Source: Trichodesmium erythraeum IMS101 (lineage in GTDB: Bacteria; Cyanobacteriota; Cyanobacteriia; Cyanobacteriales; Microcoleaceae). From it: a stretch of DNA of 32,000 bases. The stretch is taken from assembly GCF_000014265.1 (NCBI RefSeq), contig NC_008312.1, positions 5,490,001 through 5,522,000 on the forward strand, given 5' to 3'. The notes beneath the pieces are model-generated. The model was not told the DNA's origin, did not search any database, and saw nothing but the letters and a program-made list of their open reading frames with translations. Below are positions 1,329-30,441 of this stretch, in pieces. How positions within the stretch are numbered: position 1 is the first letter of the stretch; each line of letters begins with the position of its first letter. A program made the translations under genes and the position numbers.

Positions 1329-1397
1329 TAAATTTGAAAAAAATAAGCCACGAATTCTCTTATTTTTTTCTATGGAATGTCAAAAGGTTAAATAACT

Positions 1398-8812: not shown

Positions 8813-8983
8813 TTAATTTTACTCCTACTTAACTACACTAACTAGGCAAATTGTAATTATCTATAGTGATTTTGTCAAGCTAAATTTACCAAATAATAAT
8901 TAAATAATTATGATCAAAAATTAAGAAAAAATCACCGATTTTTTAGTAGAATAAAAAAATTAAAAATCAAGAACTTCAATAAT

Positions 8984-9541: not shown

Positions 9542-10174
9542 GGTATTTGATCAGTAAGAAACAATTAAATATTGGAGTAGGTCAAGATTGAGTTATTAAT
9601 AATTAATAGTAAACTCAAGTTGTATTTTCCCAGCTTAAAAGGAAAAAAATCACGAATAAACAAAAGATAAAATAATTATTTTTAAGAATACAAATTCACA
9701 AAAAAAATCAGTTTATAAATTCGCTTCCTTTCAGTTTTTCAAAGACCATACAAATATTAAATAGGCTGTTAAATTTTAAGTTCCTATGCAAAATTAATTT
9801 TACATTTTTTAGAGAGTAGGGAGTAGGGAAAATATGATTTATTGTATATCAAAAATAATTTAGTCTATCTATCAATAAAAGGAGCTAATTTTTGACTCAT
9901 ATTTACCACTATTATTCACTTTATAAAAATATACTGATCGATCAATATATTTGCCAATAATTTGCACTTCAACAGGAGCTAATTTATGAATTTTTTGATA
10001 AATTATACTCCCTAAATATCCATAAATCCTCTAAAATTTTAGTGTATTTTGCTAGATAGCATTGAGATTAGTCGATTAAGATATATTCTCAAAATTCAGG
10101 ATAAGTTTTATACTCTATAAGTATTTTATTAGCTATTAAACAGATACCCCATTATTTTCAGCATATATTATGAT

Positions 10175-13475: not shown

Positions 13476-13931
13476 AGTTAATATCATCTGAGTGAAATTA
13501 AAATAGTCAAAAATTATGGTAGCTTACCAGAAGTTATCTGTTACGTTTCGCAAATTAATCAAGTATTTATGAATTTACTAGCTAATGGAATTGATGCTTT
13601 AGAAACTATGGGAGAAAAAAAACAACAATTTGACCGTCAACCCACTATTACAATTTCTACTGAAGTAACAGATTTAGAAACAGTAAAAATCAAAATTTAT
13701 GACAATGGTAGTGGTATTAATTCTGAAGCATTATCTCAAATATTTGACCCATTTTTTACTACTAAACCAGTGGGAGTAGGTACAGGTTTAGGATTATCAA
13801 TTAGCCATTCAATTGTAGTAGAAAAACATGGGGGTAATTTGAGTTGTGTTTCTGAAGTTGGAAAAGGTACAGAGTTCATAATTGAAATTCCTATTAAACC
13901 AGCATCTAGTAATTAGAGTTAATATCATCTG
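13050..13931 (+). repeat. Perfect head-to-tail tandem duplication, 2 x 441 bp, covering the 3' end of the histidine kinase gene
   Basis: 13050-13490 and 13491-13931 are identical except c13170 versus g13611 (Arg to Gly). Each copy carries the last 142 codons, the stop codon and 15 nt of 3' flank. Confidence 0.95.
13569..13916 (+). pseudogene. Orphan HATPase_c fragment created by the tandem duplication
   Basis: The 115-aa ORF is identical, bar one residue, to the C-terminus of the kinase. It starts at an internal Met (MNLLANGIDA) and lacks the H-box/DHp domain. Confidence 0.6.
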
Positions 13932-17140: not shown

Positions 17141-17350
17141 TTAATTTCATTAATGATGAGTAGGCAAATATTTTGACAGAGTGCTGGTTTTTCACAAAAT
17201 TGTAGGAAGCGACTGGGAACTACAGAGTAGGTGAGTTTACCATCTTCCCTTTGCGGTCGAATACCTTGAATAAAGTCTTCGTAGCTATCAGCAGAATGAA
17301 ATTGGATGAGTTCCCAGAAACCATCACCTAGACTGATTAAATGTTGGGCG
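17141..17350 (-). pseudogene. Relic fragment of a McrB-family AAA+ gene
   Basis: 210 bp align without gaps to 21418-21627 of the intact mcrB, at a constant offset of 4277. I count roughly 20 mismatches by eye. The minus-strand translation is AQHLISLGDGFWELIQFHSADSYEDFIQGIRPQ...LLIINEIK*. Similarity stops abruptly at both ends. Confidence 0.75.
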
Positions 17351-17510
17351 CTAAAAGTTTCAATATAACCGACTCAGTTTTGGAAAAACATCAGTCAAAA
17401 ATAGCATCAAACCCTTATATAGTAATTTTTTTTTACTTTTTATTAACTATGTTGGTTATCTATCTTTTGTTTGATCTATTTTTAGTAATAGCTGCTAAAA
17501 ATTAATAAAA

Positions 17511-17996
17511 GTGAATATATTAGGTTTTTATCAAGACCATATTAAGAAAAAAATGAGTCCATCTCAAGTAGCAACATTACAAATATTATTATGCTTAATA
17601 TCAGTACATAAAACTGTACACATATCGAAATTAACCAATTATTTTCAGCTACCAATAAAATCTGAAAGTCAGGAAAAACATATACAAATATTTTTAGCTA
17701 TGGACAAATTAAGTTGACCTATATTTTGGTTTACTTTAGTGAAAATAATGGTCGAAAAATTATTCAGTTTCAGCTCGGAATTAGTATTAAGTTTAGATAG
17801 GACTCAGTGGCAAAATATCAATATATTAATGATTAGTGTGGCCTGGAAAAAAAAGGCTTTACCCCAGGACGGTAAAATTTTCATTCATAAAGGTGCCAGT
17901 AATTTAACAGAACAACGAGCAGTAATTCGGACTGTATTAAAACTATTGAAACAACATAAAATCATGCTCACAGGAGACCGAGAGTTCCACTACTAA
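17511..17996 (+). pseudogene. IS4-family transposase, N-terminal fragments only
   Basis: Two short ORFs in different frames. The second (SLDRTQWQNINILMISVAWKKKALP...KGASNLTEQRAVIRTVLKLLKQHKIMLTGDREFH) matches the conserved N-terminal part, including the first catalytic D region, of IS4-type transposases common in cyanobacteria. There is no continuation after 17996. Confidence 0.6.
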
Positions 17997-18120
17997 ATCT
18001 ACCATTAAGCTTGCTTGTCACCTCGTGAGGGTAAAAGTACAGCTAAAAATGATGGAAGTTAGAAGAAGCGAAAAAAGGTGGCAGATATTTGACTTAGACT
18101 CAAGTAGTTACTTTCCATAG

Positions 18121-19496
18121 CGGGACTTTAGCAAATTTCAAGCCCAAACAAACCCTAAACTCTCTTTATGAGCGGTAAATACCTCGATGTTTTCATCTAA
18201 CCACTCAACAAAACGATAAGATATTGCGGTACAAAATGCTTCTAAAGTATCAGTAAACGTATTTAATGGTTTGTTAGCCCAACGCCTTCTTATACCTCCT
18301 GTTAACTGATGCCAGATAATAAATGTATAAGCACAAAATACTAAAATAAAATGCCTTTTAAGGCTGATTTTATCTCTGACTTGATATTCTCTTAATCCTA
18401 ACCATCCTTTGGCTTCCCTGTAGAAAACTTCCACCCAATTTCTTTGAGAATAAGTAGAATATATCCACTCAGGAGTTACATATTTGTCTTCTCTATTAGT
18501 GATATAATAGTTAATATCAGTGGCCTCAGAAAAACTTTTAGCATTCATAACGATAGCTATAGTTTTTTGACCTGACATCCTAGATATTTCTACTTCTAAT
18601 GTAGCTACCCAAACTTCTCTAGCATTTTTTGTACTTAGTTGAACTAAGTTGAAAGCTTTCTGAGGTATACTTTCTGCCAGCTTGTCTAATCTAATTTCCT
18701 CTTTAATGTCATCTTGTTTTTTAATGATGACTTTTCGATTTTTAGCTAATCCTCCTATATAAGTTAAACTTCTTTTCTCTAGTTGATTTAAGAATGATGT
18801 ATTGTTACCATAGCCAAATTTCAATTAACACAATTTCTGGTTGGTGTCCTCTGGACAAACATTGATCTACTAGAGACATTGCACTCGTCTGGTTTCTTGA
18901 CAAATTCTGGGTCTTTTTTTCCTTTTGGAAAAGAATCAGCTTTCTGATACAAAGCTATGTCTAAAGGTAGACTTTTAACTCCATCATAAAGATGAGTTGT
19001 CACCACGACTACACCATTATCTGTTTTTCCTATTTCTCCTATATATTGCCGCCCTACTCCTGCAGTAAAATTACCACTTTTTCTGTGGCCTGAATCGTCT
19101 ATAATTAAAGCAATAGGATCGAGAAGGTTTTGTTTGGCGACGTTCCCACATTACTTGAAGACGACGCTCATTCACAGCATCTACAGACCAATTTGCTCGA
19201 ACTAGAAAATGCCGTAATTTGTGGTACGTGTGACCTACAGTGTTGTTGGCAATTTGAGACAAGTTTTTTCGATCGCTTTCTCAAGAGTAATCCTCCTATA
19301 TATTCCCTAAACCCTGTTTTTTGGGCTTTTGTTTTAAAGACATTGTTAAAGCGATCGCACCATCGATGGAAACAAGAGGGCATGGCCACTGAAGTTGTTT
19401 CTTTCATCAAACTTTTCCCAGGCCAGTAATTAACGTAAAATACATATCAGGTATACATTATACCCTTTTTTTTACTATTTTTTCACTAAAGTCCCG
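18121..19496 (-). mobile_element. IS701-like insertion sequence, complete ends
   Basis: 11-bp terminal inverted repeats: CGGGACTTTAG at 18121-18131 and CTAAAGTCCCG at 19486-19496. A 4-bp direct repeat ATAG flanks both ends (18117-18120 and 19497-19500). Length is 1376 bp, and the transposase reading frames are on the minus strand. Confidence 0.8.
18138..19410 (-). pseudogene. IS701-family DDE transposase, disrupted by several frameshifts
   Basis: Four ORF pieces (19410-19168, 19262-19071, 19006-18821, 18824-18138) sit in frames 0/2/1/2. Together they spell the family pattern (ALIIDDSGHRKSGNFTAGVGRQYIGEIGKTDNGVVVVTTHLYDG...GYGNNTSFL...). At least three frame changes are needed. Confidence 0.75.
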
Positions 19497-19649: not shown

Positions 19650-20867
19650 TTACAACGATACTACCGGATTTGATATTAATTCTTCTAAAAAAGATTGACC
19701 AGCTTTTTCCAAATCAGAGTCAATAGCAAATGTCAAAGTACGCAATCTTACTTGACTTTCACCAACTAATTGATTAATATAATTAGTTAGTCTTTGAGGA
19801 TAAATCAAAATAGCTTCGTGACATTTTTTATAAGTTGCATAAGCTACCACTTGGTTAATATCATCTGTCGATGGTCTGCAATCCAACTTATATTTAGTAT
19901 CAAGAATATAAACAACCTTGCAAGTTTTTATTTCATAAATAACTAAATCAATTTTACAATAAATTTTATCATCAACAATTTCTACTTTTTCTTGTTCTTT
20001 AACTCTTAAATTTGAGGATAGATGCAATTTTAACCATTTAGCTACAAATTTTTCATAGAGTTTAGCCATATCTATTAAAAAAGGTAACATTGAGTAATTA
20101 CCCTGTTGATGACTAGCTCCAATATTATCCAAAAAAAATCGACATAAACCGTGTAAAACCTGATAATCTTCATTCAAACGATGATATTTTATATTCAGAC
20201 AATCACTAGATTTAAAAGGTTGTAAAGTTACCAAACCTTGCAAAATATGAAAAGCTCTTGTTACAGTTACAGCGACTTTTTCAGAACAAAAACTACTACG
20301 GCTAATGATAAACAAAGTCCAAGCCAAAATTTGATTATCAGGAATATTAGCAGTATGTTCTTGATAATCACATTTTAAACTAACACCCCAGGGTTTGTGC
20401 ATAACTTGCCGCATATTTAATCGTCCCCGAATATAAGTTAAATTTTCTGTTTTTGGCAGATAAGCACGATGAAAACCTTTTCGACCTCGCTCTAATATTT
20501 TTTGAGCCAGAATATTAACTAAACAGTTGTAAAATTCCTGTAGAGAATTACAGTTAACTAAACCATCTAAAAAACAAAAACTTCTGAGGTTGTAGGCATA
20601 TTCCAACATTCCAAATAGGTTATGAAGTGGTACCTTAGGTTTAAGAATGATGTGAAAATCCAGAGTTATGGGAATATAACCCACCCACCCTTGAGAAGTA
20701 AATTGCCATTTGTTGTTGGTTTTGGGAGTAGGAAATTCAACTTTAATTTTTTGACCTTTTTGATCGTATTCTTGCCATAATTTAGTAGGAATACTATAAT
20801 CAATTTTATCTGGTGAAAACTGGTAAGGTTGATATTCAGTGAGTTCGATGATTTGGGAAGATTTCAT
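19650..20867 (-). CDS. mcrC: McrC-family nuclease subunit of a McrBC-type (type IV) restriction system
   Basis: 405 aa, immediately downstream (63 nt) of the McrB-family gene. The C-terminal PD-(D/E)xK-like motif is IDLVIYE...YILDTKYK, matching the D...(D/E)-x-K core typical of McrC. The N-terminus is typical of the family (IELTEYQ). Confidence 0.85.
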   Translation of the reverse strand: MKSSQIIELTEYQPYQFSPDKIDYSIPTKLWQEYDQKGQKIKVEFPTPKTNNKWQFTSQGWVGYIPITLDFHIILKPKVPLHNLFGMLEYAYNLRSFCFLDGLVNCNSLQEFYNCLVNILAQKILERGRKGFHRAYLPKTENLTYIRGRLNMRQVMHKPWGVSLKCDYQEHTANIPDNQILAWTLFIISRSSFCSEKVAVTVTRAFHILQGLVTLQPFKSSDCLNIKYHRLNEDYQVLHGLCRFFLDNIGASHQQGNYSMLPFLIDMAKLYEKFVAKWLKLHLSSNLRVKEQEKVEIVDDKIYCKIDLVIYEIKTCKVVYILDTKYKLDCRPSTDDINQVVAYATYKKCHEAILIYPQRLTNYINQLVGESQVRLRTLTFAIDSDLEKAGQSFLEELISNPVVSL

Positions 20868-20930
20868 ATTGTTTTTGAAGCAGACATAATAGATACTTTT
20901 TGCATCTGAGATGTGGGGAAAAGTCTATAT

Positions 20931-22550
20931 CTAACAAATTGTCTTTGACATCCGATGTTGAATTTTTTCCCACCGAAAATCATTGACTTTTTCTGGTTGA
21001 GCAAAGAAATATTCCTCTAAATATGGTTCAATTTCCATTTGCCAAATATCTGGAATTTCCTCTGCAATATTTTTTCGGAGAAAGAAGGAAACACCGACTT
21101 GATAGTTGGGGTCGTTTATTTCTTGGTTGACTGCTTCTAAAAGTTGAGTTAACCCCTCCACTGAAAAATTTGTTTCTATTTCCTTGTAGTATTGAAGCAA
21201 TATTTCATACTTAGGGGAGAGAGTGATGAAAGCAAAGCGACGACGAAGTGCATGGTCTACTAAAGCAATGGAGCGATCGGCAGTATTCATAGTGCCAATG
21301 ATGCGAACATTTTTAGGAATGCTGAATAATTCTGCACTACCAGCAAGGGGAATTTTGGCGTCGCGGTATTCCAGGAGGTACATAAGTTCGCCGAAAACTT
21401 GGGAGAGGTTAGCCCGGTTAATTTCATCAATGATGAGTACGCAAATATCTTGATTAAGTGCTGCTTTTTGACAAAATTGTAGGAAGCGACCGGGAACAAC
21501 AGGGTAGGTGAGTTTACCATCTTGGCTTTGGGGTCGAATACCTTGAATAAAGTCTTCGTAGGTATAAGCAGAATGAAATTGGATCAGTTCCCAGAAGCCG
21601 TCACCTCGACTGATTAAGTGTTGGGCGAGTTTTTGAGAGAGGAAAGTTTTGCCTGTACCAGGTGGACCTTGGAAAATAGCCTGTTTTTTACGGTTGATAG
21701 CGCGTATCCATTGGGTGAGTTCTGTTTCTGTGAAGTTTGTTTCTTGGGAGCATTGAGTTAGAGTGTATTCTGGTTGTAAATTAATCACATTTATTTTTTG
21801 ATCTTGATCTTGATTAGTTTTATAGATATTGTCTGTACTCTTTATATTTTCACTAATAAAATTGTATTTTTTTACATCTACCAACCAATAACAAAACATA
21901 TCAAACAAATCATCATCTCGCATTGCAGGTATATTTTGCTTCTGCATTTCTTCAGCTAATTCTAAAATTAGATTATGGCCAGTGAGATTAATATATGGGT
22001 ATTCAGTTAGCTTTTGAGTATGTTTTGTGTTACTTAAATAATTAATTACTTTTCTGGATTTATTATTAATTAAAAGAAAATCATCTGGTTTGACTGCATT
22101 CAGAATAGGTGTTATTATTCCTATTTTAAATTCTCTAGAATATGGTAATTTAGAAAAATTTTTACAAGCTACTAAAAATTTATGATAATCTGTAATACAG
22201 GAAGTTACAAAATTATAAATTGCTCTAGTAATAACAGACCAATCTTCTTGCTTTTCCAACCATTGAAACCATTCACTTAAATCAGTATTGCTAGATTCAC
22301 TCAAGTAAATCCATACACCCTTTTGTCGATTACTGGGAGTATTAGTATGAGGTAAAAGTTTCCATATAATCAACTCTGTTATGTCTTCCCCTGCCTTAGC
22401 AGCAGTAGTTATTTCTTCAAAATTCCGGCGACCTTGTTGACGTTGTTTTTCATAAGATGCTCTATGATTTAATCCTTCTAAGCTATAGGGATATGAGTCA
22501 GAAAATTCTTGAAAAAGTTGAACAAATAAAGTTAGTTGTTGAATTGCCAT
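20931..22550 (-). CDS. mcrB: McrB-family AAA+ GTPase with an unassigned ~270-aa N-terminal domain
   Basis: Walker A FQGPPGTGKTF (about 21645-21671). Walker B and family motif LIIDEINRANLSQVFGELMYLLE. McrB signature MNxxDRS present as GTMNTADRS, followed by RRRF. The first ~270 aa carry no motif I can name. Confidence 0.9.
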   Translation of the reverse strand: MAIQQLTLFVQLFQEFSDSYPYSLEGLNHRASYEKQRQQGRRNFEEITTAAKAGEDITELIIWKLLPHTNTPSNRQKGVWIYLSESSNTDLSEWFQWLEKQEDWSVITRAIYNFVTSCITDYHKFLVACKNFSKLPYSREFKIGIITPILNAVKPDDFLLINNKSRKVINYLSNTKHTQKLTEYPYINLTGHNLILELAEEMQKQNIPAMRDDDLFDMFCYWLVDVKKYNFISENIKSTDNIYKTNQDQDQKINVINLQPEYTLTQCSQETNFTETELTQWIRAINRKKQAIFQGPPGTGKTFLSQKLAQHLISRGDGFWELIQFHSAYTYEDFIQGIRPQSQDGKLTYPVVPGRFLQFCQKAALNQDICVLIIDEINRANLSQVFGELMYLLEYRDAKIPLAGSAELFSIPKNVRIIGTMNTADRSIALVDHALRRRFAFITLSPKYEILLQYYKEIETNFSVEGLTQLLEAVNQEINDPNYQVGVSFFLRKNIAEEIPDIWQMEIEPYLEEYFFAQPEKVNDFRWEKIQHRMSKTIC

Positions 22551-22694
22551 ACACAGTTATTTTAATTTTTGGTGTTGGTTATTTTGACTATGATTGTGCA
22601 AGAATTGCGATGGCCTAACTCTTAACTGAAAATAATTTTTAATTGGGCTAAATAATGGTTTCATAGCTTGATTCACAAACGCCTTATTTTTGAA

Positions 22695-23135
22695 CTATTC
22701 AAAATCATAGTCTACTAATTTCTTAATAATTTCAAATTCATTAGGTTTCAAGTAACGATAGCTTTGAGGTGGCCTAAAAGTATTCAATTCTTGTCTTAAT
22801 TGTTCTAATTCTACTGGATTACTAAAAGTTTTAATTTTTTGGAAAAATATTCCAATCCCCAAATCTAATCCTGAATAATAATCGTAAAATTCTTCCTGGG
22901 TAATTCCTGCTTTTTCTTCGACTTCATCCCAAAGGTAAGAGATATTTTTTTTGATAATTTTTTTGACTTTAAAGTAACCAACTACAGCTTTTTTAGGAGA
23001 TGAAACATAAACTATAACTAAATCATCTTTATCTAAAGAAGGAAAAACACGACGTAATTCAACTTTTTTTGTTTTCTGGTAGAAAATTTTATCAGCATAT
23101 TCTGGCTTTATAGATAAAAGAACTGTATTTGGCAT
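22695..23135 (-). CDS. Stand-alone ASCH (PUA-like fold) domain protein
   Basis: 146 aa. The N-terminal pattern LLSIKPEYADKIFYQKTKKVELRR followed by VIVYVSSPKKAVVGYFKV matches the ASCH/COG4933-type consensus as I remember it. The start is 16 nt after the stop of the upstream gene, with an AGGA about 10 nt upstream. Confidence 0.65.
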   Translation of the reverse strand: MPNTVLLSIKPEYADKIFYQKTKKVELRRVFPSLDKDDLVIVYVSSPKKAVVGYFKVKKIIKKNISYLWDEVEEKAGITQEEFYDYYSGLDLGIGIFFQKIKTFSNPVELEQLRQELNTFRPPQSYRYLKPNEFEIIKKLVDYDFE

Positions 23136-23151
23136 ATTTGAATAATCCTAA

Positions 23152-25257
23152 TTAATTTTTGTTGATTTGATCATATATTTTAGCAAATTGATCTGGTGTT
23201 ATTTTAAAAGGTCCTTGAACAGTTATCTGTTTTTTTAGTATATCTTGAAGTTCTTTTAAAGTTATAGTATTAGTGAACACTTGAGTATCACTAAATCGAA
23301 CAGCCATTATATCTTCATTAGGATCATTGTTGGTGATTTTTATTAAATCTTCTAATTTATATATACCTAGATTACGAAATTGTCTATATAATTTTTCTGG
23401 TTTGTCTACTATGACTTCATCTAATCGAGAACAAGCTTTAATTACTTTTGTTGTCCCGTATGGAAAAGATTTATCATTGCTGACATACCATATAATCCTA
23501 CCAATTACACCAGGTTTTAAACCGCCCTTAGAACGATAAAATACAAGTTCACGTTTAAGTGCTAATTCAGTTTTAGAGCCAAATAACCAATAATTAGCTA
23601 ACTCTTCATCAAATAAATCTTTTGCCCAAAATGGTTTAATAGGAATAATCCATGTAGGCACATTAGCATCAATTATTTTTGCAGGCCACAGAAAACGTTC
23701 TATTTCTATTGTAGTTTGTGAATTTTTCGTTGATTCAGATTGACTAATAGTTTTTGCAAATTTTATACAAAAATTTGATTGATATTCTAATTCAAATTTA
23801 GCTAAATCATTGAGACGCTTAGATAGATTAGATGCTGTTTCTGCTACGGGAATATTTACCTTTATATATTCTCCCTTATTCTTAATAAAAGCATCTTCTT
23901 GAATAGCTTTAACAACTATTTCTTCTAAATAGGGGTCAGTGATTCTTGTAAAATATCTGTTCTCCTGAGCTGAAATTATTATGGCATGAAAAATTAAATA
24001 ACGTGCAAGTGTTCCACCTAAAGAATTATCTTTAACTCTTAGTAATGGAATTTCTAATTCAGAAGATTTTGATTTATTATAAACAATTAAACCGACTGGT
24101 TGATTTTCTTCCATTACAAGCTGATGACATATAAACTTAGAACAATTACTAATAAAACTGCGAATTTTTTGCTGAAAATATTCTTTTTTCTCACCATTTT
24201 TTTGACTCCAAAAATAATCAGTCAGCCCCTTGATTTGATTGATCGGTACAGATTGAAGATTGATTTGATTTGAACCCGCTAATCGTACAGGTTGATATGT
24301 AGTGCTTCTACGAATTTCATCTAGGTTAATAATGAGGTTACTAGGATTAGTTATTTCTAGCTTAAAAATTTTATAGATTTCATCGGTTAAATTTAAAATA
24401 TGTGAATCACGAGTTACAAAAATTAGGCATTCAGAAGCAAGTGTCATAGCTAGCTGACGTATTTGTGATTGATCAAGTTTGAGATTACTTCCTTCCATAA
24501 ACTCTATAAAAGAGTTTAAAAAAACCTCAAAATTTTGCTGATTATATGGTAATTTTGTAAACTTTTCTGCATTGAGACGTTGATATTTTCTATCTTGGGA
24601 ATCAGTAATATTATTAATAGCATTAAAAATTTCATCAGTGACACATAACTCTAAGTCATCTTGTAGCCAATCAGCAAGTAAAGACTCTGATTCTTCACTT
24701 TTAAAACTATCATTTTCAGACAAATCAAAGAAAACATTTATATCAATAATTGCACATAGTTTAGAATTGAGCTTTTCGGTAGCATTAACAGAAAATAAAT
24801 TGGGATGACCATGATCTAGCCACCAAACTGTTAAGGGTTTTCCTTCCTTACTTTTTCCAGGCTTTTCATTTAAGGGAACAAAGCCTAACTTAGACCACAT
24901 TTCGTCTAATCCATAATCGCGACGGCATTTTAACTTAATACCATAAAAATCTTGATGCCTTTGACTTAAATAATTTACTAGTGTCCTAGTCAAACCCCTA
25001 CCGCGGGATGATTCAGCAACACATAAATGAACTATTACAAGATGATTACTTCGACGAACCTTTCGGTACATCAGATAACCAATAAAATTTTCTTTTGGAT
25101 CTAAAGCTATAATAATTTGGCCACGTTTTGCATAATCAAAAAAAGTATCGTAGGATAAATGACCTAGGGTTTTTGTATTAGCATCGCCCAATTTAATAAC
25201 AGCTTGTAAATGGGGAGATTTTTCGTCAATTTCTATAGTTTTTATTTTTTCTGTCAT
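23152..25257 (-). CDS. Multidomain protein: GNAT acetyltransferase, PIN-like nuclease, second GNAT-like region, C-terminal ASCH-like module
   Basis: 701-aa ORF. In aa ~60-135, IVHLCVAESSRGRGLTRTLVNYL resembles the GNAT motif A acetyl-CoA site, followed by WSKLGF. In aa ~168-300, CAIIDINVFFDL, VTDEI and LIFVTRDSHI give PIN-like acidic residue spacing. In aa ~385-450, GGTLARYLIFHAI looks like a degenerate second GNAT. In aa ~520-690, IIPIKPFWAKDLF...GRIIWYVS...LKELQDIL...ITPDQFAKI parallels the downstream ASCH protein motif by motif. Confidence 0.7.
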   Translation of the reverse strand: MTEKIKTIEIDEKSPHLQAVIKLGDANTKTLGHLSYDTFFDYAKRGQIIIALDPKENFIGYLMYRKVRRSNHLVIVHLCVAESSRGRGLTRTLVNYLSQRHQDFYGIKLKCRRDYGLDEMWSKLGFVPLNEKPGKSKEGKPLTVWWLDHGHPNLFSVNATEKLNSKLCAIIDINVFFDLSENDSFKSEESESLLADWLQDDLELCVTDEIFNAINNITDSQDRKYQRLNAEKFTKLPYNQQNFEVFLNSFIEFMEGSNLKLDQSQIRQLAMTLASECLIFVTRDSHILNLTDEIYKIFKLEITNPSNLIINLDEIRRSTTYQPVRLAGSNQINLQSVPINQIKGLTDYFWSQKNGEKKEYFQQKIRSFISNCSKFICHQLVMEENQPVGLIVYNKSKSSELEIPLLRVKDNSLGGTLARYLIFHAIIISAQENRYFTRITDPYLEEIVVKAIQEDAFIKNKGEYIKVNIPVAETASNLSKRLNDLAKFELEYQSNFCIKFAKTISQSESTKNSQTTIEIERFLWPAKIIDANVPTWIIPIKPFWAKDLFDEELANYWLFGSKTELALKRELVFYRSKGGLKPGVIGRIIWYVSNDKSFPYGTTKVIKACSRLDEVIVDKPEKLYRQFRNLGIYKLEDLIKITNNDPNEDIMAVRFSDTQVFTNTITLKELQDILKKQITVQGPFKITPDQFAKIYDQINKN

Positions 25258-25787
25258 TTTTGATGCTTTTTGAAATCACTTAAGGAGACTTAGGTGTTTA
25301 ATCTTAAAAATTCATGGTTCGATTGTCATTTATGACTTCATTTATCAACAACCATTTAGAGGTGGTGTATATATGACTTTCTCTTAGGTAACTTCCATCA
25401 AATAAGTTACTTTTAAATGTTTTATAACGGTAGGATTATAAGTATTTAATATTTTTGACAAAAATCTATATTTCAACTTTTTTATTGCTATAAATAGCTT
25501 GATATTATTTCAGATCTTAAAACATAATTTTCCCTAAGTGGGCAAATTTCGTGCAATATGGAATCAATATGACTAACTCCATATCTGTCTACCAGGAAAG
25601 TTTATTTTATCTCTTAAAACCGAATTTTGTAGTAGGTTAAAGATTTTACTATTCATATGACGAAAAGAAAATATAGGCAAATTAAAATTTTTTGTATATA
25701 AAACACAAGCAAAACCCAAGACAATGTGATGATACAAAGAAATAAGTTTAAAATTCTGAATATACTAACAGAAAAATCTAAAATCTA

Positions 25788-28700
25788 ATGGTTGAAGCAA
25801 AATCCTATAAAGAGACCGTAAACCTGCCCCAGACTAACTTTAATATGAGGGCTAACTCAGTCACCAGGGAACCAGAACTACAAAAGTTTTGGGCACAAGA
25901 ACAAATCTATGAACGTCTTTCTCAGACCAACCCAGGGGAAATCTTCACCCTACATGATGGCCCACCTTATGCTAATGGCAACCTACACATTGGCCATGCC
26001 TTGAATAAAATCCTTAAAGACATTATCAACCGCTACCAAATCCTCCAAGGGCGAAAAGTTCGTTATGTTCCTGGTTGGGACTGCCACGGTTTACCCATAG
26101 AATTGAAAGTTATTCAAAATATTAAATCAGCAGAAAGGGCAAAACTCACACCCATAGAATTACGTCGCAAAGCTAGAGACTTTGCTCTCGAAACTATAGA
26201 CAAACAGCGTGAATCATTCAAACGTTATGGAGTTTGGGGAGACTGGGAACATCCCTACATGACTCTCTCTCCAGAATATGAAGCTGCTCAAATTGGGGTA
26301 TTTGGTAAAATGGTTTTGAAAGGCTACATTTATCGTGGTCTCAAACCTGTACATTGGAGTCCGAGTTCTAAAACTGCTCTTGCAGAAGCAGAACTGGAAT
26401 ATCCCGAAGGTCACAAGTCTCGGAGTATCTATGCTGCTTTTAAAATCACTAACTTGGCAAAAGCAGTTGAAAAGTCTCTCGAATCTTATCTAGAAAAACT
26501 CTGGGTGGCCATCTGGACTACAACACCTTGGACTATTCCTGGGAATTTGGCAGTTAGCGTTAACCCAGACCTTAATTATGCTGTTGTCAAACCTGATGCT
26601 GACTATGCAATGGGAAAAGACAAATTATTTATAGTTGCAGCAGAAGCAGTTGAACGTTTATCAGCAACTCTGGGCACAACTTTAACACCTGTAGCGACGG
26701 TTAAAGGTGAAGACTTAGAAAACTGCACTTACCAACACCCACTGTTTGACCGGGAAAGTAAAATTGTTATTGGTGGGGACTATGTTACTACTGAGTCAGG
26801 TACGGGTTTAGTTCATACTGCTCCCGGTCACGGTCAGGAAGACTATATCGTAGGGCAACGTTATAGTTTATCAATTTTGTCCCCTGTGGATGGCAATGGG
26901 AAATTTACTGCTGAAGCCGGAGAGTTTACGGGGTTAAGTGTTTTGGCAGAAGGGAATATTGCTGTTATTGAAGCACTGCAAAATGTTAATTCTCTATTGA
27001 AAGAGGAACCCTACGAACATAAATATCCCTATGATTGGCGCACTAAAAAACCTACTATTTTCCGAGCAACTGAACAATGGTTTGCTTCTGTTGAAGGTTT
27101 CCGCAGTGAAGCACTTAAGGCGATCGCTGAAGTTAACTGGATACCTGCTCAAGGAGAAAACCGCATTACTCCAATGGTGAACGATCGCTCTGACTGGTGT
27201 ATTTCTCGACAAAGAAGTTGGGGTGTACCTATTCCTGTATTTTATGACGAAAAGACTGGGGAACCTTTGCTAACTGAGGAAACTGTTGCTCATGTGCAAA
27301 AAATTATTGCTGAAAAAGGTTCTGATGCTTGGTGGGAAATGTCGGTGGAGGAACTTTTACCAGAAACCTATCGCCAAGATGCTGAGAAGTACCGCAAAGG
27401 AACGGATACCATGGATGTCTGGTTTGACTCTGGTTCATCTTGGGCGGCAGTTGCTCAACAAAGGGAAGGGTTAAGATATCCAGTTGATATATATTTGGAA
27501 GGTTCTGACCAACATCGCGGTTGGTTTCAGTCAAGTTTGCTGACTAGTATTGCTACTAATGGTGTGGCACCATATCAAACTGTTTTGACTCACGGTTTTG
27601 TACTTGACGAGAATGGTCGGAAGATGAGTAAGTCTCTGGGAAATGTGGTAGACCCGGTAATAGTTATTGAAGGTGGCAAAAATCAAAAACAAGAACCTGC
27701 TTATGGTGCAGATATTTTGCGTTTGTGGGTTTCTTCTGTAGATTATTCTTCTGATGTACCCCTGGGTAAGAATATTCTCAAGCAAATAGCAGATATTTAT
27801 CGCAAAATTAGAAATACGGCGCGGTTTTTGTTGGGAAATATCCATGATTTTGATCCGGCAAAAGATGCTGTTGCTTATGAGGAAATGCCAGAACTAGATC
27901 GTTATATGTTGCACCGGATTACAGAGGTGTTTGCTGAAGTCAAAGATGGTTTTGATAAATTTCAGTATTTCCGCTTTTTCCAAACAATTCAAAATTTCTG
28001 TGTGGTTGACTTATCTAACTTTTATTTGGATATTGCTAAAGATCGACTTTATATTAGTGCGACTGATGCTTTCAGACGTCGCAGTTGTCAGACAGTCTTA
28101 GTTGTCGCTGTAGAAAATTTGGCAAAAGCGATCGCTCCAGTTTTACCCCATATGGCAGAAGATATTTGGCAAAATCTTCCTTATCCGACTCCCTGCAAAT
28201 CTGTATTTGAGTCTGGATGGGTGAAATTAGAGGAAAAATGGCATAACCCAGAGTTAGTTAAGTTATGGGAAGAGTTACGAAAAACTCGCACTGAAGTTAA
28301 CAAAGTGTTGGAAAAAGCGCGGGCAGAAAAAGCAATTGGTTCGCCTTTAGAAGCTAAGGTATTGTTGTATGTAAAAGATACTAAATTCCGGGAGCAAATA
28401 CAAGATTTTAATCCCATTGCTCAAGGAGAAAAAAGTAAGTCTGAATTCTGGGAAGCTAAAATCGAAATTGAACCAGAAAAAACAGAAGATAAAACTACTA
28501 ATAACCAACAAAAGTTTCCTGATATTTTTTATACTTATAAAAATTTTTTATCAGATTTTTCTAATACTGTGAGTAAATTACTTAGTGGGTATAAAAAAGC
28601 TTTAGGAGGGGTGTTTTTGATGATTATATTACTGTTATCAATACAACTAACAGTAACGGTAGTAAAAACAATTGAAAAACTGCCTCTAGTAAATTACATC

Positions 28701-29246
28701 ATGATATTAGTGGGAATTATCTACACAATTCGCTTTGTTACTCATAATTTGTTATTTGCTAAAAGTCGCCAAAGTTGGTTAGATAAAATAAAATTGACTG
28801 CTGAAGATATATTAGGTAAAGAGGCTTTATCTACTCAAAAGAAAAATTTGGCAGACAATACAGTTAAACAGTCAGCAACTTTAGTATATCCAGAAGGAGT
28901 TTTTGTGCCCCCCCAAAAAGTCGAATTTACCCCAGAACCACAAGTAGTAGAAACAGAAACTTTACCTCAACAACCTAATAATGTTAAAGCCATAATTCCT
29001 TCTGGTAATGGGGTTGATGAATTACGTTATCTATTTATTACTTCTCAAGTAGAATTATTAGAATCTCCAGAATGTTTAAGTAATCTCGAATATAAGTCTA
29101 TATTAGATTCTTTAGGTATAGGAGTAGTCAAAGCAGATGGTGAGAAATGCGAACGCTGTTGGAATTATTCTACTCATGTTGGTGACTTCTCAGAAGATCC
29201 CACAATTTGTGAACGTTGTGTTGTTGCTTTAGCAGGAGAATTTTAA
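25788..29246 (+). CDS. ileS: Isoleucyl-tRNA synthetase with an internal membrane-anchor (CAAD-type) insertion
   Basis: Class I signatures HIGH ([13 protein letters not shown]) and KMSKS ([10 protein letters not shown]). The N-terminus is typical of IleRS ([17 protein letters not shown]). The C-terminal zinc knuckles are CERCWNY...CERC. At 1152 aa it is about 190 aa longer than ordinary bacterial IleRS. Confidence 0.95.
28420..29000 (+). other. CAAD-like insertion (two transmembrane helices) within ileS
   Basis: This low-complexity, A/T-rich stretch interrupts the IleRS sequence between ...[10 protein letters not shown] and [19 protein letters not shown]. It contains two hydrophobic helices ([22 protein letters not shown] and [24 protein letters not shown]) followed by [20 protein letters not shown]. 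This matches the CAAD/CURT1 pattern as I remember it. Boundaries are approximate. Confidence 0.7.
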
Positions 29247-29295: not shown

Positions 29296-30441
29296 TAGAC
29301 ATCTCCAAAATAGAAAATAAGATAAGATTGTCATGTTCATTTATAATTTTATTTAGGTAGCTATACCAATGAATAAAACTTTAGAGTACATTCATAATTA
29401 TCCGAAAGAAACAAAAAGAATTATAGGGATTACTTATGAACAGCTAACACAATTAATAGAAAATGCAATTATCAAAGAATCAGAAAATTTCCAGGTAATT
29501 GCCGAGAAAGAAATAAGTTTAATTAAACCAGGTGGAGGCAGAAAAAAGACTTTAACTAAAACAGAATAAATATTTTTAACGCTATATTATTTACATCATA
29601 TACCAACTTTTCAATTATTAGGAATAAATTTTGGAGTTAGTGAATCAACAGCCAATAATATATTCCATTACTGGATAAATATTTTACAAGATTTATTACC
29701 AGCTAGTTTATTAGAACAAGTAAAAAAAAAGAAGATGAATGAGAAGGGGTAAAAGAAGCGTTAATGGAATTAGAATTAATAGTAGATAGCTCAGAACAAA
29801 GTAGAGAAAGACCAAAAGAATCTGAAAAACCAGAAAAATATTATTCAGGAAAAAAGAAAAATAATACCTTTAAAAATCAAATAATAACGACACCAAAAGG
29901 AACAGAAATAGTGGATGTAATTATCGGAGAAAGGGGACCATTAAGTGATATAAATTTATTAAACAAACAACGGGAAAATTTTAAGGATAATCAATATTTT
30001 CAAGGGGATAAGGCAGATCAAGGAGCAGAAAGAACAAGTACACCAAAAAAGAAACCAAGAAAAAAAGAAATGCCAGAAGAAATAAAAGAAAAAAATCAAC
30101 AAAAAGCCCAAAAAAGAATATTCGTAGAACATGTAATTAGATTACTAAAAATATTTGGAATTGCGAGAGAAAGATTTAGATTAAAAGAGAAAAGTTATGA
30201 GAAAGTAATAATGGTAGTATGTGGATTAGTGAAATTAAGAATAGGAGCATTAATATTAGTATAAAAAGAAGATAATCAATTAAGAGAATAAAGTGAAAAT
30301 GGGGGGAAATAAATGTTGAATTAGTAAGAGAAAATATCTCAAAGATTTATGATTGCGTATTTTAGGACCAAAGATGCTTGATATGGCAACTAGGCTAAGA
30401 TCAAGTCAAGGAAAGGCTTTGTTAATTTTTGGAGATGTCTA
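29296..30441 (+). mobile_element. IS5/Harbinger-type (DDE_Tnp_4-like) insertion sequence, copy 1
   Basis: Perfect terminal inverted repeats: TAGACATCTCCAAAA (29296-29310) and TTTTGGAGATGTCTA (30427-30441). The outer TA may be a 2-bp target duplication. The transposase lies inside. Confidence 0.75.
29369..30264 (+). pseudogene. DDE_Tnp_4-type transposase, broken by an in-frame TAA and a frameshift
   Basis: The N-terminal HTH part (29369-29569) ends in TAA, and the same frame then continues (IFLTLYYLHHIPTFQLLGINFGVSESTANNIF). The frame changes near the A9 run at 29721-29729. The catalytic part (29764-30264) carries LIVDSSEQ, YYSGKKK, GDKADQG and RIFVEHVIRLLK. Confidence 0.7.

What the first reader, a model, noticed from the sequence alone, without database searches (positions are those of the whole stretch)
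19650..25257. Candidate composite defence cassette: GNAT-PIN-ASCH protein, ASCH protein, McrB GTPase and McrC nuclease
Four minus-strand genes run without interruption. The gaps are 16 nt (with AGGA), 144 nt and 63 nt. No plausible opposite-strand gene lies in between.

McrB and McrC are secure from motifs: GPPGTGKT, DEINRAN, MNTADRS and D...DTKYK. The two genes in front of them are unusual. One is a 701-aa protein combining an acetyltransferase, a PIN-like nuclease and a PUA-like ASCH module. The other is a free-standing ASCH protein.

PUA-like domains (EVE, ASCH, YTH) are known modified-base readers. As I recall from comparative surveys, they are often fused to McrB N-termini. E. coli YqfB, an ASCH protein, has been reported to deacetylate N4-acetylcytidine.

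A locus that joins an acetyl-transfer enzyme, two ASCH modules, an RNase-type PIN domain and a modification-dependent GTP-driven nuclease suggests several possibilities, all inference:
- a system that reads, or writes and then reads, an acyl-type or other base modification on invader nucleic acid;
- an McrBC system backed by a GNAT/PIN abortive-infection effector;
- two independent systems stacked in one island.

I do not recognise this combination as a named system.
Basis: partly seen in the sequence, partly recalled or inferred. Interest (0 to 1): 0.85.

Follow-up and report, generated by a model that had tools for sequence, protein, structure and literature searches.

The report
Gev-type GNAT/PIN–ASCH module wedded to McrBC
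Four neighbouring genes in this Trichodesmium-like cyanobacterium form a conserved operon that joins an already catalogued but untested toxin/antitoxin-like defence pair to an ordinary McrBC restriction enzyme; the two halves are known, but their stable union appears not to have been described.

Summary
Four intact minus-strand genes (701, 146, 539 and 405 aa) lie at the stated coordinates with the stated gaps and motifs.

The front pair is not new. It is a long form of the (PIN)-GNAT-EVE + ASCH module of Iyer 2013 and Bell 2020. PADLOC lists this module as candidate PDC-M11, and a 2025 phage record annotates it as GevT toxin / GevA antitoxin. The 701-aa protein is an active GNAT, then PIN, then a degenerate GNAT-like domain, then a PUA-like domain homologous to the small ASCH protein. 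The back pair is a canonical NxxD McrBC, but its N-terminal domain is an uncharacterised all-α fold.

What appears new is the linkage:
- 61 of 80 species-level loci carry all four genes in the same order, with median gaps of 10, 51 and −4 nt.
- All linked loci form one clade in the GNAT-PIN tree; the 10 standalone pairs form the sister clade.
- The four proteins co-vary about as tightly as McrB does with McrC.
- Sister McrBCs that lack the pair carry fused EVE or Mrr_N reader domains instead.

Both halves also occur alone. The most likely reading is a functionally coupled two-arm defence operon; independent hitch-hiking is not excluded. This is a new variant of known kinds, of moderate interest.

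The parts
23152..25257 (-). 701-aa multidomain protein: an N-terminal GNAT added to a PIN-GNAT-EVE (PDC-M11A / GevT-like) core
   Evidence: ORF. 515 homologs with a conserved ~700-aa architecture. 1,314 representatives at 50% identity with E<=1e-30. AF2 model pLDDT 80.5 with four globular domains. PADLOC PDC-M11A 1.8e-9 on aa 500-672.
24808..25257 (-). D1 (aa 1-150): GNAT acetyltransferase with an intact acetyl-CoA motif R/Q-x-x-G-x-A/T (RGRGLT)
   Evidence: Pfam Acetyltransf_1 7e-10 and in 30/30 family members. Foldseek top hits are Ard1/Naa and SpeG GNATs, TM 0.7-0.83. Motif conserved: R/Q85 in 54/54, G88 in 49/54.
24307..24765 (-). D2 (aa 165-317): PIN-like nuclease domain
   Evidence: PIN_3 7.9e-4 in the window protein and 1.8e-6 (above cut-off) in a homolog. 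15/30 family members match PIN_3. Acidic residues: D172 46/54, E189 51/54 as E or D, D196 54/54, D208 45/54, D313 47/54. Eight orthologs have Ala at position 172.
23848..24261 (-). D3 (aa 333-470): GNAT-like fold by predicted topology; the acetyl-CoA signature is absent
   Evidence: AF2 secondary structure b1-a1-a2-b2-b3-b4-a3-b5-a4-b6. It sits where the GNAT of the PIN-GNAT-EVE profile PDLC04421 lies, by collinear alignment of a homolog. No Pfam hit, no hhalign similarity to D1 or to the GevT N-terminus. No R/QxxGxG/A motif. Assignment inconclusive.
23155..23694 (-). D4 (aa 522-701): PUA-like (EVE/ASCH) domain, paralogous to the downstream ASCH protein
   Evidence: hhalign against the ASCH protein family: 96.3% probability, E = 1.5e-9, 133 columns. 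PADLOC PDC-M11A EVE region 1.8e-9. Foldseek 5gus_B Zymomonas ASCH 1.4e-6. In the Okeania comparison it is co-inherited with ASCH-McrBC (85-98% vs ~45% identity for aa 1-500).
22695..23135 (-). 146-aa free-standing ASCH/EVE-type PUA-like protein (PDC-M11B / GevA homolog)
   Evidence: PADLOC PDC-M11B 5e-36. Pfam ASCH 21.2 bits, exactly at the cut-off, and EVE 18.2 bits. 34% identity, E = 4e-21, to GevA of phage PhiR47_2. K23, E26, L27 and R28 of the ASCH motif are invariant in 54/54.
20931..22550 (-). McrB: canonical NxxD AAA+ GTPase (aa 263-539) behind an uncharacterised all-alpha N-terminal domain (aa 1-235, nt 21846-22550)
   Evidence: AAA_5 4e-22 and NCBIfam McrB 5e-48. Matches PDB McrB chains. 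Walker A, Walker B (DE) and NTAD invariant in 54/54. NTD AF2 model pTM 0.79, all helical; no significant PDB fold match, best E = 0.39. The same NTD is fused to the NmeDI_C nuclease domain elsewhere.
19650..20867 (-). McrC: PD-(D/E)xK nuclease subunit
   Evidence: Pfam McrBC PF10117 4.7e-40 and NCBIfam McrC 7.8e-29. D307, D323-T-K325 and Q339 invariant in 54/54. Start overlaps the mcrB stop by 4 nt in the median ortholog.
25258..25787 (.). 530-nt divergent intergenic region shared with ileS; presumed promoter region of the cassette (inferred, not shown)
   Evidence: Sequence. Promoter-like matches are no more frequent than in shuffled sequence. No Rfam family.
17143..17349 (-). Relic of a second mcrB copy (aa 309-377, 81% identical), beyond transposase debris
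   Evidence: 210-nt direct repeat, 90% identical to 21418-21627. tblastn 1e-31. The sister Trichodesmium species has two tandem mcrB paralogs in the cassette.

Best explanation
This is a single, co-inherited four-gene defence operon built from two modules that work together.

Arm 1 (shown by homology) is a canonical McrBC Type IV restriction machine. McrB is an NxxD GTPase whose uncharacterised all-alpha N-terminal domain probably selects the DNA target. McrC is the PD-(D/E)xK nuclease.

Arm 2 (shown by homology) is a long form of the Gev / PDC-M11 '(PIN)-GNAT-EVE + ASCH' pair. It has one large enzyme carrying an active GNAT acetyltransferase, a PIN nuclease, a degenerate GNAT-like domain and a PUA-like domain. 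It also has a small ASCH protein that is a paralog of that PUA-like domain.

Inferred mechanism: McrBC attacks modified invader DNA. The GNAT/PIN enzyme is a toxin-type effector, acting by acetylation and/or RNA cleavage, probably on tRNA or another modified RNA. The ASCH partner holds it in check. The two PUA-like modules tie this arm to McrBC, so that the arm acts as a back-up or guard when restriction fails or is inhibited. The precedent is the PrrC anticodon nuclease nested in the EcoprrI Type I restriction system (established knowledge).

The linkage is shown. The toxin/antitoxin behaviour rests on annotation of a homolog. The guard logic is inference.
For: Linkage:
- 61 of 80 species-level loci have G-A-B-C in the same order and on the same strand. 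Of 73 judgeable loci, 61 are complete and 2 more are degraded derivatives.
- Median gaps are 10, 51 and -4 nt across the 61 loci.
- There is no terminator-like site in the gaps of the window.
- In the GNAT-PIN tree every McrBC-linked locus falls in one clade and all 10 standalone pairs in the sister clade. This indicates one acquisition, retained down to ~45% identity.
- Pairwise identities of the four proteins correlate at r = 0.80-0.87 across the two arms (0.80-0.90 over all six pairs), against 0.90 for McrB-McrC.
- The cassette also travels on cyanobacterial plasmids.

Coupling hints:
- In window vs Okeania, D4 + ASCH + McrB + McrC are 81-98% identical while aa 1-500 of the large protein are ~45%. 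The breakpoint lies at the D3/D4 linker.
- Sister McrBCs with the same NTD (GTPase 60-64% identical in the closest seven; 37% in L088) lack the pair. Several carry cis-fused reader domains instead: EVE 2.5e-10, Mrr_N 2.4e-13, DUF2461.

Module identity:
- PDC-M11B 5e-36 and PDC-M11A 1.8e-9.
- GevT = PDC-M11A 2e-133 and GevA = PDC-M11B 7e-52.
- GenBank annotates GevT as toxin and GevA as antitoxin at the lambda rex position.
- The literature places such pairs inside Type I RM and other defence loci (PMC7641849; bioRxiv 10.1101/2024.01.29.577857).
- A Prevotella homolog sits in a defence island.

Enzymatic competence: the catalytic motifs of McrB, McrC, GNAT D1 and the ASCH protein are conserved.
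Against: - Both halves can stand alone. Ten standalone GNAT-PIN/ASCH pairs sit among housekeeping genes. Eight McrBCs with the same NTD have no pair. Neither arm therefore strictly needs the other.
- Payne et al. show that independent systems are often nested in one another.
- The domain-boundary mosaic was seen in only one lineage pair.
- There is no expression, interaction or phenotype data.
- Toxin/antitoxin status rests on one GenBank annotation whose paper I could not find.
- The PIN first aspartate is Ala in 8 of 54 orthologs, and the fourth acidic position is variable.
- D3 could not be confirmed as GNAT by sequence.
- The context sample is biased to the 80 closest of 180 genome matches, within a family of more than 1,300 representatives.
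Confidence: 0.5

Rival explanations
1. These are two independent defence systems, a Gev/PDC-M11-type toxin-antitoxin or abortive-infection pair and a self-sufficient McrBC. They were joined once and have since hitch-hiked together as a compact island, with no mechanistic cross-talk.
For: - Standalone pairs exist in cyanobacteria, Scalindua, Chloroflexota and Prevotella.
- McrBCs with the same NTD exist without the pair.
- The NTD alone is paired with a nuclease domain (NmeDI_C) in solitary genes. This suggests McrB already has its own targeting domain.
- The ASCH-to-mcrB gap (median 51 nt, 144 nt here) is larger than the other two gaps and could hold a promoter.
- Nesting of unrelated systems is common (bioRxiv 10.1101/2024.01.29.577857).
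Against: - The linked clade is monophyletic, with no clean reversal, across divergence to ~45% identity.
- Co-variation is as tight as between McrB and McrC.
- Order and strand are identical in 61 loci.
- The mosaic breakpoint falls inside the large gene, not between the two 'systems'.
- The cassette-type McrB is the one that lacks a fused reader domain.
Confidence: 0.27
2. The PUA-like proteins are trans-acting specificity subunits of McrBC. The ASCH protein and/or the D4 domain read a modified base in invader DNA or RNA and recruit or license the McrB GTPase. They replace the EVE, YTH or Mrr_N reader that is fused to McrB in relatives. The GNAT and PIN domains add a second enzymatic hit at the recognised site.
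For: - Distribution is complementary. Sister McrBs with the same NTD and no upstream pair carry fused EVE (2.5e-10), Mrr_N (2.4e-13) or other inserts. The cassette McrB (539 aa) has none.
- D4 + ASCH are co-inherited with McrBC in the Okeania comparison.
- PUA-like domains are the commonest sensors of modification-dependent nucleases (PMC7641849; PMC12191111).
- An ASCH domain fused to HsdS has been reported (PMC7641849).
Against: - The GNAT-PIN/ASCH pair functions as a unit without any McrBC in the sister clade and in phages.
- No locus was found with ASCH + McrBC alone.
- McrB keeps its own conserved NTD, which serves as the only non-catalytic domain of solitary nucleases.
Confidence: 0.15
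3. This is a write-then-read system. The GNAT acetylates (or otherwise acylates) a base on incoming nucleic acid, the ASCH/EVE modules read that mark, and McrBC cleaves.
For: - The active GNAT motif is conserved.
- Two PUA-like readers are present.
- According to Bell 2020 (PMC7641849), Iyer et al. 2013 proposed DNA base acetylation for (PIN)-GNAT-EVE proteins.
- E. coli YqfB, an ASCH protein, deacetylates N4-acetylcytidine (own knowledge, not checked here).
Against: - No self/non-self discriminator is evident.
- D1 most resembles protein and polyamine N-acetyltransferases (Ard1/Naa, SpeG, RimI).
- Homologous pairs exist without any nuclease that could read the mark.
- Nothing in the data requires this model.
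Confidence: 0.05
4. The upstream pair is a housekeeping RNA-modification or ribosome-associated factor, not a defence system, and it only happens to lie next to McrBC.
For: - The ASCH protein matches the C-terminal domain of an NCBIfam 'ribosomal protein L22 / unknown domain fusion' model at 8.6e-14.
- Standalone pairs sit among metabolic genes.
Against: - Distribution is patchy and plasmid-borne.
- Phage-encoded homologs occupy the rex locus.
- The Prevotella homolog lies in a defence island.
- The pair is a PADLOC defence candidate derived from embedding in BREX, DISARM or Type I RM systems.
- IS elements and RM genes flank the Trichodesmium and Okeania copies.
Confidence: 0.03

Closest known systems
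(PIN)-GNAT-EVE + ASCH operons (Iyer et al. 2013; Bell, Wolf & Koonin 2020, PMC7641849) = PADLOC candidate PDC-M11 = GevT/GevA of E. coli phage PhiR47_2 (GenBank PV340567.1)
   Same: - Both have a small ASCH partner immediately downstream (PDC-M11B 5e-36; 34% identical to GevA).
- The large protein ends in a PUA-like EVE/ASCH domain that matches PDC-M11A.
- The PIN-GNAT-EVE domain order is collinear with aa ~165-701.
- Both are associated with restriction systems and mobile DNA.
   Different: - The window protein has an additional, clearly active GNAT at the N-terminus. Its internal GNAT-like domain has lost the acetyl-CoA signature.
- The partner system is McrBC (Type IV). The Type I RM, CRISPR-Cas, AAA_17 and prophage contexts reported for the known pairs do not apply here.
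- The held text of Bell 2020 does not link these pairs to McrBC.
- The CoCoNuT census does not contain the terms GNAT, ASCH, PUA or acetyltransferase.
Canonical McrBC (E. coli K-12 type, NxxD GTPase) Type IV restriction system
   Same: - The AAA+ GTPase has Walker A, Walker B and the NTAD signature.
- McrC has the PF10117 fold and the D...D-x-K nuclease motif.
- The genes are tightly coupled.
   Different: - The N-terminal domain is not DUF3578, EVE or YTH. It is a ~235-aa all-alpha domain with no significant fold or sequence match.
- The system is permanently preceded by the GNAT-PIN/ASCH pair.
PrrC-EcoprrI (anticodon nuclease nested in a Type I RM system) and similar 'guard' arrangements
   Same: A toxin-type RNA-directed effector is genetically nested with a restriction enzyme and co-inherited with it. 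This is the analogy proposed for how the cassette works (own knowledge plus the embedding survey, bioRxiv 10.1101/2024.01.29.577857).
   Different: There is no sequence relationship. The effector here is GNAT/PIN rather than an ABC-ATPase anticodon nuclease. The restriction partner is Type IV. No evidence of a physical complex or of activation by anti-restriction proteins is available.
END nucleases / iEndoIII sensor fusions (PMC12191111)
   Same: An all-alpha sensor domain is fused alternatively to a PD-(D/E)xK-type nuclease or to a McrB-like GTPase, the same pair of partners seen for this NTD. Ogg/AGOG, MagIII and MutY HhH-GPD glycosylases recur among the weak Foldseek hits of the NTD model.
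   Different: The best Foldseek E-value is 0.39 with TM 0.3-0.43. No profile hit to any HhH-GPD protein was found in PDB or in 5.8 billion proteins. Membership is therefore unproven.
CoCoNuT systems (PMC11090510), some subtypes of which are cyanobacterial
   Same: Both are McrBC-derived operons with extra RNA-related domains.
   Different: This McrB has NxxD rather than NxD. It has no long coiled coil and an intact McrC nuclease. It is not a member.

Membership tests
McrBC Type IV restriction system (canonical NxxD branch) | McrB AAA+ GTPase with Walker A, Walker B and the NxxD signature | tested here: met
   GPPGTGKT, DEINRAN and MNTADRS are present. AAA_5 4e-22, NCBIfam McrB 5e-48, and hits to PDB McrB chains. 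Invariant in 54/54 orthologs.
McrBC Type IV restriction system (canonical NxxD branch) | Adjacent McrC with a PD-(D/E)xK catalytic motif | tested here: met
   PF10117 4.7e-40. D307 ... D323-T-K325 invariant. Median 4-nt overlap with mcrB across 61 loci.
McrBC Type IV restriction system (canonical NxxD branch) | N-terminal DNA-binding specificity domain of a known type (DUF3578, EVE, YTH, etc.) | tested here: not met
   The NTD is all-alpha with no Pfam family. It has no hhalign similarity to ASCH or D4 and no significant Foldseek or PDB-sequence match. A targeting role is inferred only from its fusion to NmeDI_C nucleases.
McrBC Type IV restriction system (canonical NxxD branch) | GTP-dependent cleavage of modified DNA | not testable with these tools
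   Requires biochemistry.
(PIN)-GNAT-EVE + ASCH / PDC-M11 / GevAT | Small ASCH-family protein encoded immediately downstream of the large protein | tested here: met
   PDC-M11B 5e-36. GevA 34% identity, E = 4e-21. 16-nt gap here, median 10 nt across loci.
(PIN)-GNAT-EVE + ASCH / PDC-M11 / GevAT | Large protein ends in an EVE/PUA-like domain matching PDC-M11A | tested here: met
   PDC-M11A 1.8e-9 on aa 500-672. hhalign to the ASCH family at 96% probability. Foldseek 5gus ASCH 1.4e-6.
(PIN)-GNAT-EVE + ASCH / PDC-M11 / GevAT | PIN domain N-terminal to the GNAT | tested here: met
   PIN_3 in 15/30 members, 7.9e-4 in the window protein. A homolog aligns to positions 4-216 of the PIN-GNAT-EVE profile.
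(PIN)-GNAT-EVE + ASCH / PDC-M11 / GevAT | GNAT-like domain between PIN and EVE | tested here: inconclusive
   D3 has GNAT topology in the AF2 model and the right position. It has no Pfam hit, no hhalign similarity to D1 or to the GevT N-terminus, and no acetyl-CoA motif.
(PIN)-GNAT-EVE + ASCH / PDC-M11 / GevAT | Toxin/antitoxin or anti-phage activity | not testable with these tools
   The only support is a GenBank annotation. PDC-M11 is an untested candidate. No paper was found.
CoCoNuT (NxD McrB with coiled coil) | NxD signature motif, long coiled-coil fusion, often an inactivated McrC nuclease | tested here: not met
   The motif is N-T-A-D (NxxD). The NTD model is a helical globule of 235 aa. 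McrC catalytic residues are intact.
END / iEndoIII-sensor nucleases | Sensor domain with the inactivated HhH-GPD (EndoIII/Ogg) fold | tested here: inconclusive
   Seven of the top 50 Foldseek hits are HhH-GPD glycosylases, but the best E-value is 0.39. No sequence-profile support.
GNAT-RHH toxin-antitoxin (AtaT/TacT type) | Small RHH/DNA-binding antitoxin next to a single-domain GNAT toxin | tested here: not met
   The partner is an ASCH/PUA-like protein. The toxin candidate is a 701-aa four-domain protein.

The most novel reading that the evidence does not exclude
The two paralogous PUA-like modules (D4 and the ASCH protein) are adaptors that physically dock a GNAT/PIN effector onto the McrBC motor. 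This would make the first 'guarded' Type IV restriction system. When McrBC engages or is blocked on modified invader DNA, the ASCH brake is released. The enzyme then acetylates and/or cleaves a modified RNA, such as tRNA, and aborts infection. If so, the long-uncharacterised (PIN)-GNAT-EVE family would be restriction-system guards in general. That would explain why they are found nested in Type I RM, BREX and, here, McrBC loci.
Probability: 0.25. Interest if true: 0.75.

Novelty: new variant of a known kind. Interest (0 to 1): 0.55.

Why it matters
(PIN)-GNAT-EVE + ASCH pairs have been predicted since 2013, and PADLOC lists them as an untested candidate, but their function is unknown. This cyanobacterial clade offers a natural experiment. 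The pair is locked to a well-understood partner, McrBC, across more than 60 species. A sister clade has the pair alone, and sister McrBCs carry fused readers instead.

That makes the question 'what do these modules do for a restriction system?' directly testable with sub-cassettes and point mutants. The locus also exposes an uncharacterised all-alpha targeting domain shared by McrB GTPases and solitary NmeDI_C-type nucleases. For Trichodesmium biology, it adds a mobile, IS-flanked defence locus next to ileS.

Tried and rejected
- CoCoNuT membership: rejected, because the motif is NxxD and there is no coiled coil.
- McrB NTD as a PUA-like reader: rejected (hhalign probability 0.1%, all-alpha model).
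- McrB NTD as an iEndoIII/HhH-GPD sensor: only weak Foldseek hints (E = 0.39). There is no support from a profile search of PDB sequences or of 5.8 billion proteins. Kept as a lead only.
- D3 as a recognisable GNAT: no Pfam hit in five orthologs at E <= 10, and no hhalign link to D1 or GevT.
- GevT vs the 701-aa family directly: only a weak alignment to D4 (E = 0.01-0.024). The link had to be made through the PADLOC profiles.
- Literature on GevAT or PhiR47_2: three searches found nothing relevant. Iyer 2013 is not held.
- Promoter and terminator scan: no more matches than in shuffled sequence, so uninformative about the operon.
- The 144-nt ASCH-mcrB spacer: no unusual RNA structure (z = -0.72). 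No Rfam family anywhere in the window.
- Viral contigs (IMG/VR): no relative of the 701-aa protein.
- Recurrent domain-boundary recombination: looked for in all pairs, but found only in window vs Okeania.
- The Foldseek output does not report query ranges. The PIN and D3 folds therefore could not be confirmed separately from the full-length model.

Full report
OBSERVATION. The window holds four intact minus-strand ORFs at exactly the reported coordinates: 23152-25257 (701 aa), 22695-23135 (146 aa), 20931-22550 (539 aa) and 19650-20867 (405 aa). The gaps are 16, 144 and 63 nt. The 16-nt gap contains AGGA. Only two small plus-strand ORFs (76 and 70 aa) lie inside the span. The McrB motifs GPPGTGKT, DEINRAN and MNTADRS and the McrC motif D...DTKYK are present.

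The region has about 30% G+C, like its surroundings. It lies between ileS and transposase debris. The organism is a Trichodesmium. The nearest named homolog of the large protein is from Trichodesmium sp. MO_231.B1 (87% identity). The identical protein is found next to the same ileS on other assemblies.

DOMAINS OF THE 701-aa PROTEIN. Pfam sees only a GNAT at aa 29-131 (7e-10). An AlphaFold model built on 30 homologs (pLDDT 80.5) shows four globular domains.
- D1 (aa 1-150) is a GNAT. Foldseek gives Ard1/Naa and SpeG acetyltransferases (TM to target 0.7-0.83). The acetyl-CoA motif R/Q-x-x-G-x-A/T is conserved across 54 orthologs.
- D2 (aa 165-317) is a PIN domain. PIN_3 scores 7.9e-4 in the window protein, passes Pfam's cut-off in a homolog, and matches 15 of 30 family members. 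Most acidic residues are conserved, but eight orthologs have Ala at the first aspartate.
- D3 (aa 333-470) has the GNAT strand/helix order in the model. It has no Pfam hit, no profile similarity to D1 and no acetyl-CoA motif. I call it GNAT-like, unconfirmed.
- D4 (aa 522-701) is PUA-like. It is homologous to the downstream 146-aa protein (hhalign 96% probability, E = 1.5e-9). It matches the EVE part of PADLOC PDC-M11A (1.8e-9). The full-length model also hits the Zymomonas ASCH structure 5gus.

THE 146-aa PROTEIN. It sits on the ASCH/EVE border of the PUA-like superfamily. Pfam ASCH scores exactly at its cut-off and EVE just below it. The protein is unambiguous as PADLOC PDC-M11B (5e-36). Its K-x-x-E-L-R motif is invariant in 54 of 54 orthologs.

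THE FRONT PAIR IS A KNOWN KIND. Bell, Wolf and Koonin (PMC7641849), following Iyer et al. 2013, described (PIN)-GNAT-EVE proteins. They are almost always encoded with an ASCH protein and are often embedded in Type I RM loci or prophages. The authors interpreted them as toxin-antitoxin-like, and nothing about them has been characterised experimentally.

PADLOC's PDC-M11 is an untested multi-gene 'phage defence candidate'. It was derived by guilt-by-embedding in BREX, DISARM and Type I RM systems (bioRxiv 10.1101/2024.01.29.577857).

ASCH homologs occur in 34 phage records. One of them, E. coli phage PhiR47_2, annotates the pair as 'GevT toxin / GevA antitoxin', located between cI and kil, which is the lambda rex position. 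GevA is 34% identical to the window protein (E = 4e-21). GevT is PDC-M11A (2e-133) and GevA is PDC-M11B (7e-52).

A PIN-GNAT-EVE profile aligns collinearly with residues ~172-675 of a ~700-aa homolog. The window protein is therefore an extra active GNAT placed in front of a PIN-GNAT-EVE core. This long architecture is itself widespread: 1,314 representatives at 50% identity score E <= 1e-30, and the best 150 are nearly all full-length. I could not find a paper on GevAT.

THE BACK PAIR. McrB matches AAA_5 (4e-22), NCBIfam McrB (5e-48) and solved McrB structures. McrC matches PF10117 (4.7e-40). All catalytic residues are invariant in 54 orthologs. The signature is NxxD rather than the NxD of CoCoNuTs, and there is no coiled coil. 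This is therefore a canonical-branch McrBC.

Its N-terminal ~235 residues are unusual. The AF2 model (pTM 0.79) is all-alpha and is unrelated to ASCH or D4. It has no significant fold match, with a best E-value of 0.39, and no distant sequence relatives.

The same domain is fused to a restriction-nuclease catalytic domain (Pfam NmeDI_C) in solitary Bradyrhizobium-type genes. That argues it is a DNA-targeting module.

HhH-GPD glycosylases recur among the weak Foldseek hits. A 2025 preprint describes an inactivated EndoIII/Ogg sensor of hypermodified DNA that is fused to PD-DExK nucleases and to McrB (PMC12191111). I keep this as a lead only.

IS THE LINKAGE REAL? A scan of one genome per species returned 180 relatives of the large protein, and the best 80 loci were fetched.
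- 61 loci carry all four genes in the same order and on the same strand.
- 10 are genuine standalone GNAT-PIN + ASCH pairs with at least 5 kb of downstream sequence.
- The remainder are cut by contig ends or visibly degraded.
- Median gaps across the 61 loci are 10, 51 and -4 nt.

In a neighbour-joining tree of the large protein, all standalone pairs form one clade: cyanobacteria, Scalindua and a Chloroflexota MAG. Every McrBC-linked locus falls in the sister clade. This indicates a single acquisition that has been retained down to about 45% identity.

Pairwise identities of the four proteins correlate at r = 0.80-0.87 across the two arms, against 0.90 for McrB with McrC. The cassette also sits on plasmids of Calothrix PCC 6303 and Nostoc CENA543. 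No terminator-like site lies in the window's gaps, although the consensus scans are not informative either way.

TWO FURTHER CLUES TO COUPLING.
1. Against Okeania, the ASCH, McrB and McrC proteins are 81-84% identical, but the large protein is only ~55%. The break lies inside that gene at about residue 500-520. D4 is 85-98% identical and aa 1-500 about 45%. So the PUA-like domain travels with ASCH-McrBC, while the enzymatic front end has a different history. This mosaic was seen only in this one lineage pair.
2. A reverse search with the McrB NTD found eight McrBC loci that lack the upstream pair. Seven have closely related GTPases (60-64% identity) and, where the contig extends far enough, McrCs at 47-52% identity; L088 is more distant at 37%. 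Their McrBs are 698-1132 aa long. Between NTD and GTPase several carry extra domains: EVE (2.5e-10), Mrr_N (2.4e-13), DUF2461 and others. The 539-aa cassette McrB carries none. Readers fused in cis in relatives, against PUA-like proteins encoded in trans here, is a Rosetta-stone-type hint.

WHAT ARGUES FOR INDEPENDENCE. Both halves exist alone. The standalone pairs sit among housekeeping genes. A Prevotella homolog (28% identity, same architecture) lies in a defence island without McrBC. Nesting of unrelated systems is common. The context sample covers only the closest 80 of a very large family.

MECHANISM. Shown by homology and conservation:
- an enzymatically competent McrBC;
- a large protein with an intact GNAT and a mostly intact PIN;
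- two paralogous PUA-like modules;
- stable, operon-like, monophyletic linkage.

Inferred: McrBC restricts modified invader DNA through its own NTD. The GNAT/PIN enzyme is a toxin-type effector restrained by ASCH. The PUA-like modules connect the two arms, so that the pair acts as a back-up or guard of restriction, as PrrC does for EcoprrI. I give the coupled two-arm operon 0.5. The alternatives are independent hitch-hiking at about 0.27, trans-acting reader subunits at about 0.15, and write-then-read acetylation at about 0.05.

NOVELTY AND VERDICT. The front pair is already catalogued under three names, and McrBC is ordinary. I did not find two things described in Bell 2020, in the CoCoNuT McrBC census or in the PADLOC source paper:
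- the stable union of the long GNAT+PIN-GNAT-EVE/ASCH pair with McrBC in a large cyanobacterial clade;
- the all-alpha NTD shared by McrB and NmeDI_C-type nucleases.

This is a new variant of known kinds, with interest 0.55. Its value is as a natural test bed for the function of an old, uncharacterised module.

Noticed in passing
window 17141-17350 (and 21418-21627): A 210-nt direct repeat, 90% identical, is a relic of a second mcrB (aa 309-377, 81% identical). It lies beyond mcrC and the IS debris. The sister species Trichodesmium sp. MO_231.B1 has two tandem mcrB paralogs inside the cassette (L107), and the Okeania loci L005 and L009 have duplicated mcrB pieces.
   Followed up: partly
window 17500-19430: Fragmented DDE transposase ORFs in several frames (for example 18138-18824, DDE_Tnp_1 1e-7) lie immediately downstream of mcrC. 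Another DDE_Tnp_4 gene is at 29764-30264. The cassette sits in an IS-rich stretch.
   Followed up: partly
window 25788-29246: ileS encodes 1152 aa, with a hydrophobic insert before the C-terminal zinc-binding part. Precomputed Pfam annotation calls the insert CAAD (PF14159), the known cyanobacterial aminoacyl-tRNA-synthetase membrane-anchoring domain. This is ordinary for the clade.
   Followed up: yes
window 1398-7982: A 2194-aa STAND protein: NACHT N-terminal helical domain 2 (7e-54), then NACHT, then about 23 HEAT repeats. It may be a sensor or defence NTPase. It was not examined further.
   Followed up: no
L104 (Calothrix sp. PCC 6303 plasmid pCAL6303.01) 3838-11542; L107 5147-7122; L083 3241-6237: Classical RM genes sit directly upstream of the cassette or of its sister McrBC. 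These are a DNA cytosine methyltransferase plus Eco29kI-family REase (Calothrix), a SacI-like REase plus Dam-like MTase (Trichodesmium MO_231.B1), and an Eco57I-type methylase (L083). A resident cytosine methylase next to McrBC implies that this McrBC does not attack that host mark.
   Followed up: partly
L063 8410-9921 and L069 6981-8489: In two standalone-pair loci, the gene immediately upstream and co-directional encodes a thymidylate-synthase-like domain fused to PterinBD-DUF4346. Thymidylate-synthase homologs make hypermodified pyrimidines in phages, so this may or may not be a coincidence.
   Followed up: no
window 22695-23135: The ASCH protein matches the C-terminal 'unknown domain' of NCBIfam PRK12279, 'ribosomal protein L22 / unknown domain fusion' (8.6e-14, model positions 189-311). 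This hints that the ASCH subfamily can act at the ribosome or on rRNA.
   Followed up: no
L081/L082 6001-7326; L090-L096: Solitary ~445-aa genes (Bradyrhizobium and soil metagenomes) fuse the McrB-type all-alpha NTD to a NmeDI_C restriction-nuclease domain, with no methyltransferase nearby. They are candidates for single-chain modification-dependent nucleases.
   Followed up: partly
L105 (Prevotella sp. oral taxon 299) 301-10474: A 685-aa protein of the same four-domain architecture (28% identical) plus an overlapping ASCH gene follows a Schlafen/RecG-like gene, an Eco57I-type RM fusion and an AAA_23 + HNH pair (Septu-like). It is followed by VapE-like mobile-element genes. This is a defence island without McrBC.
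   Followed up: partly
window 11991-13916: A GAF-HisKA-HATPase histidine kinase gene (494 aa) is followed by a separate 115-aa ORF that is only a HATPase_c domain. This may be a duplicated or split kinase fragment.
   Followed up: no
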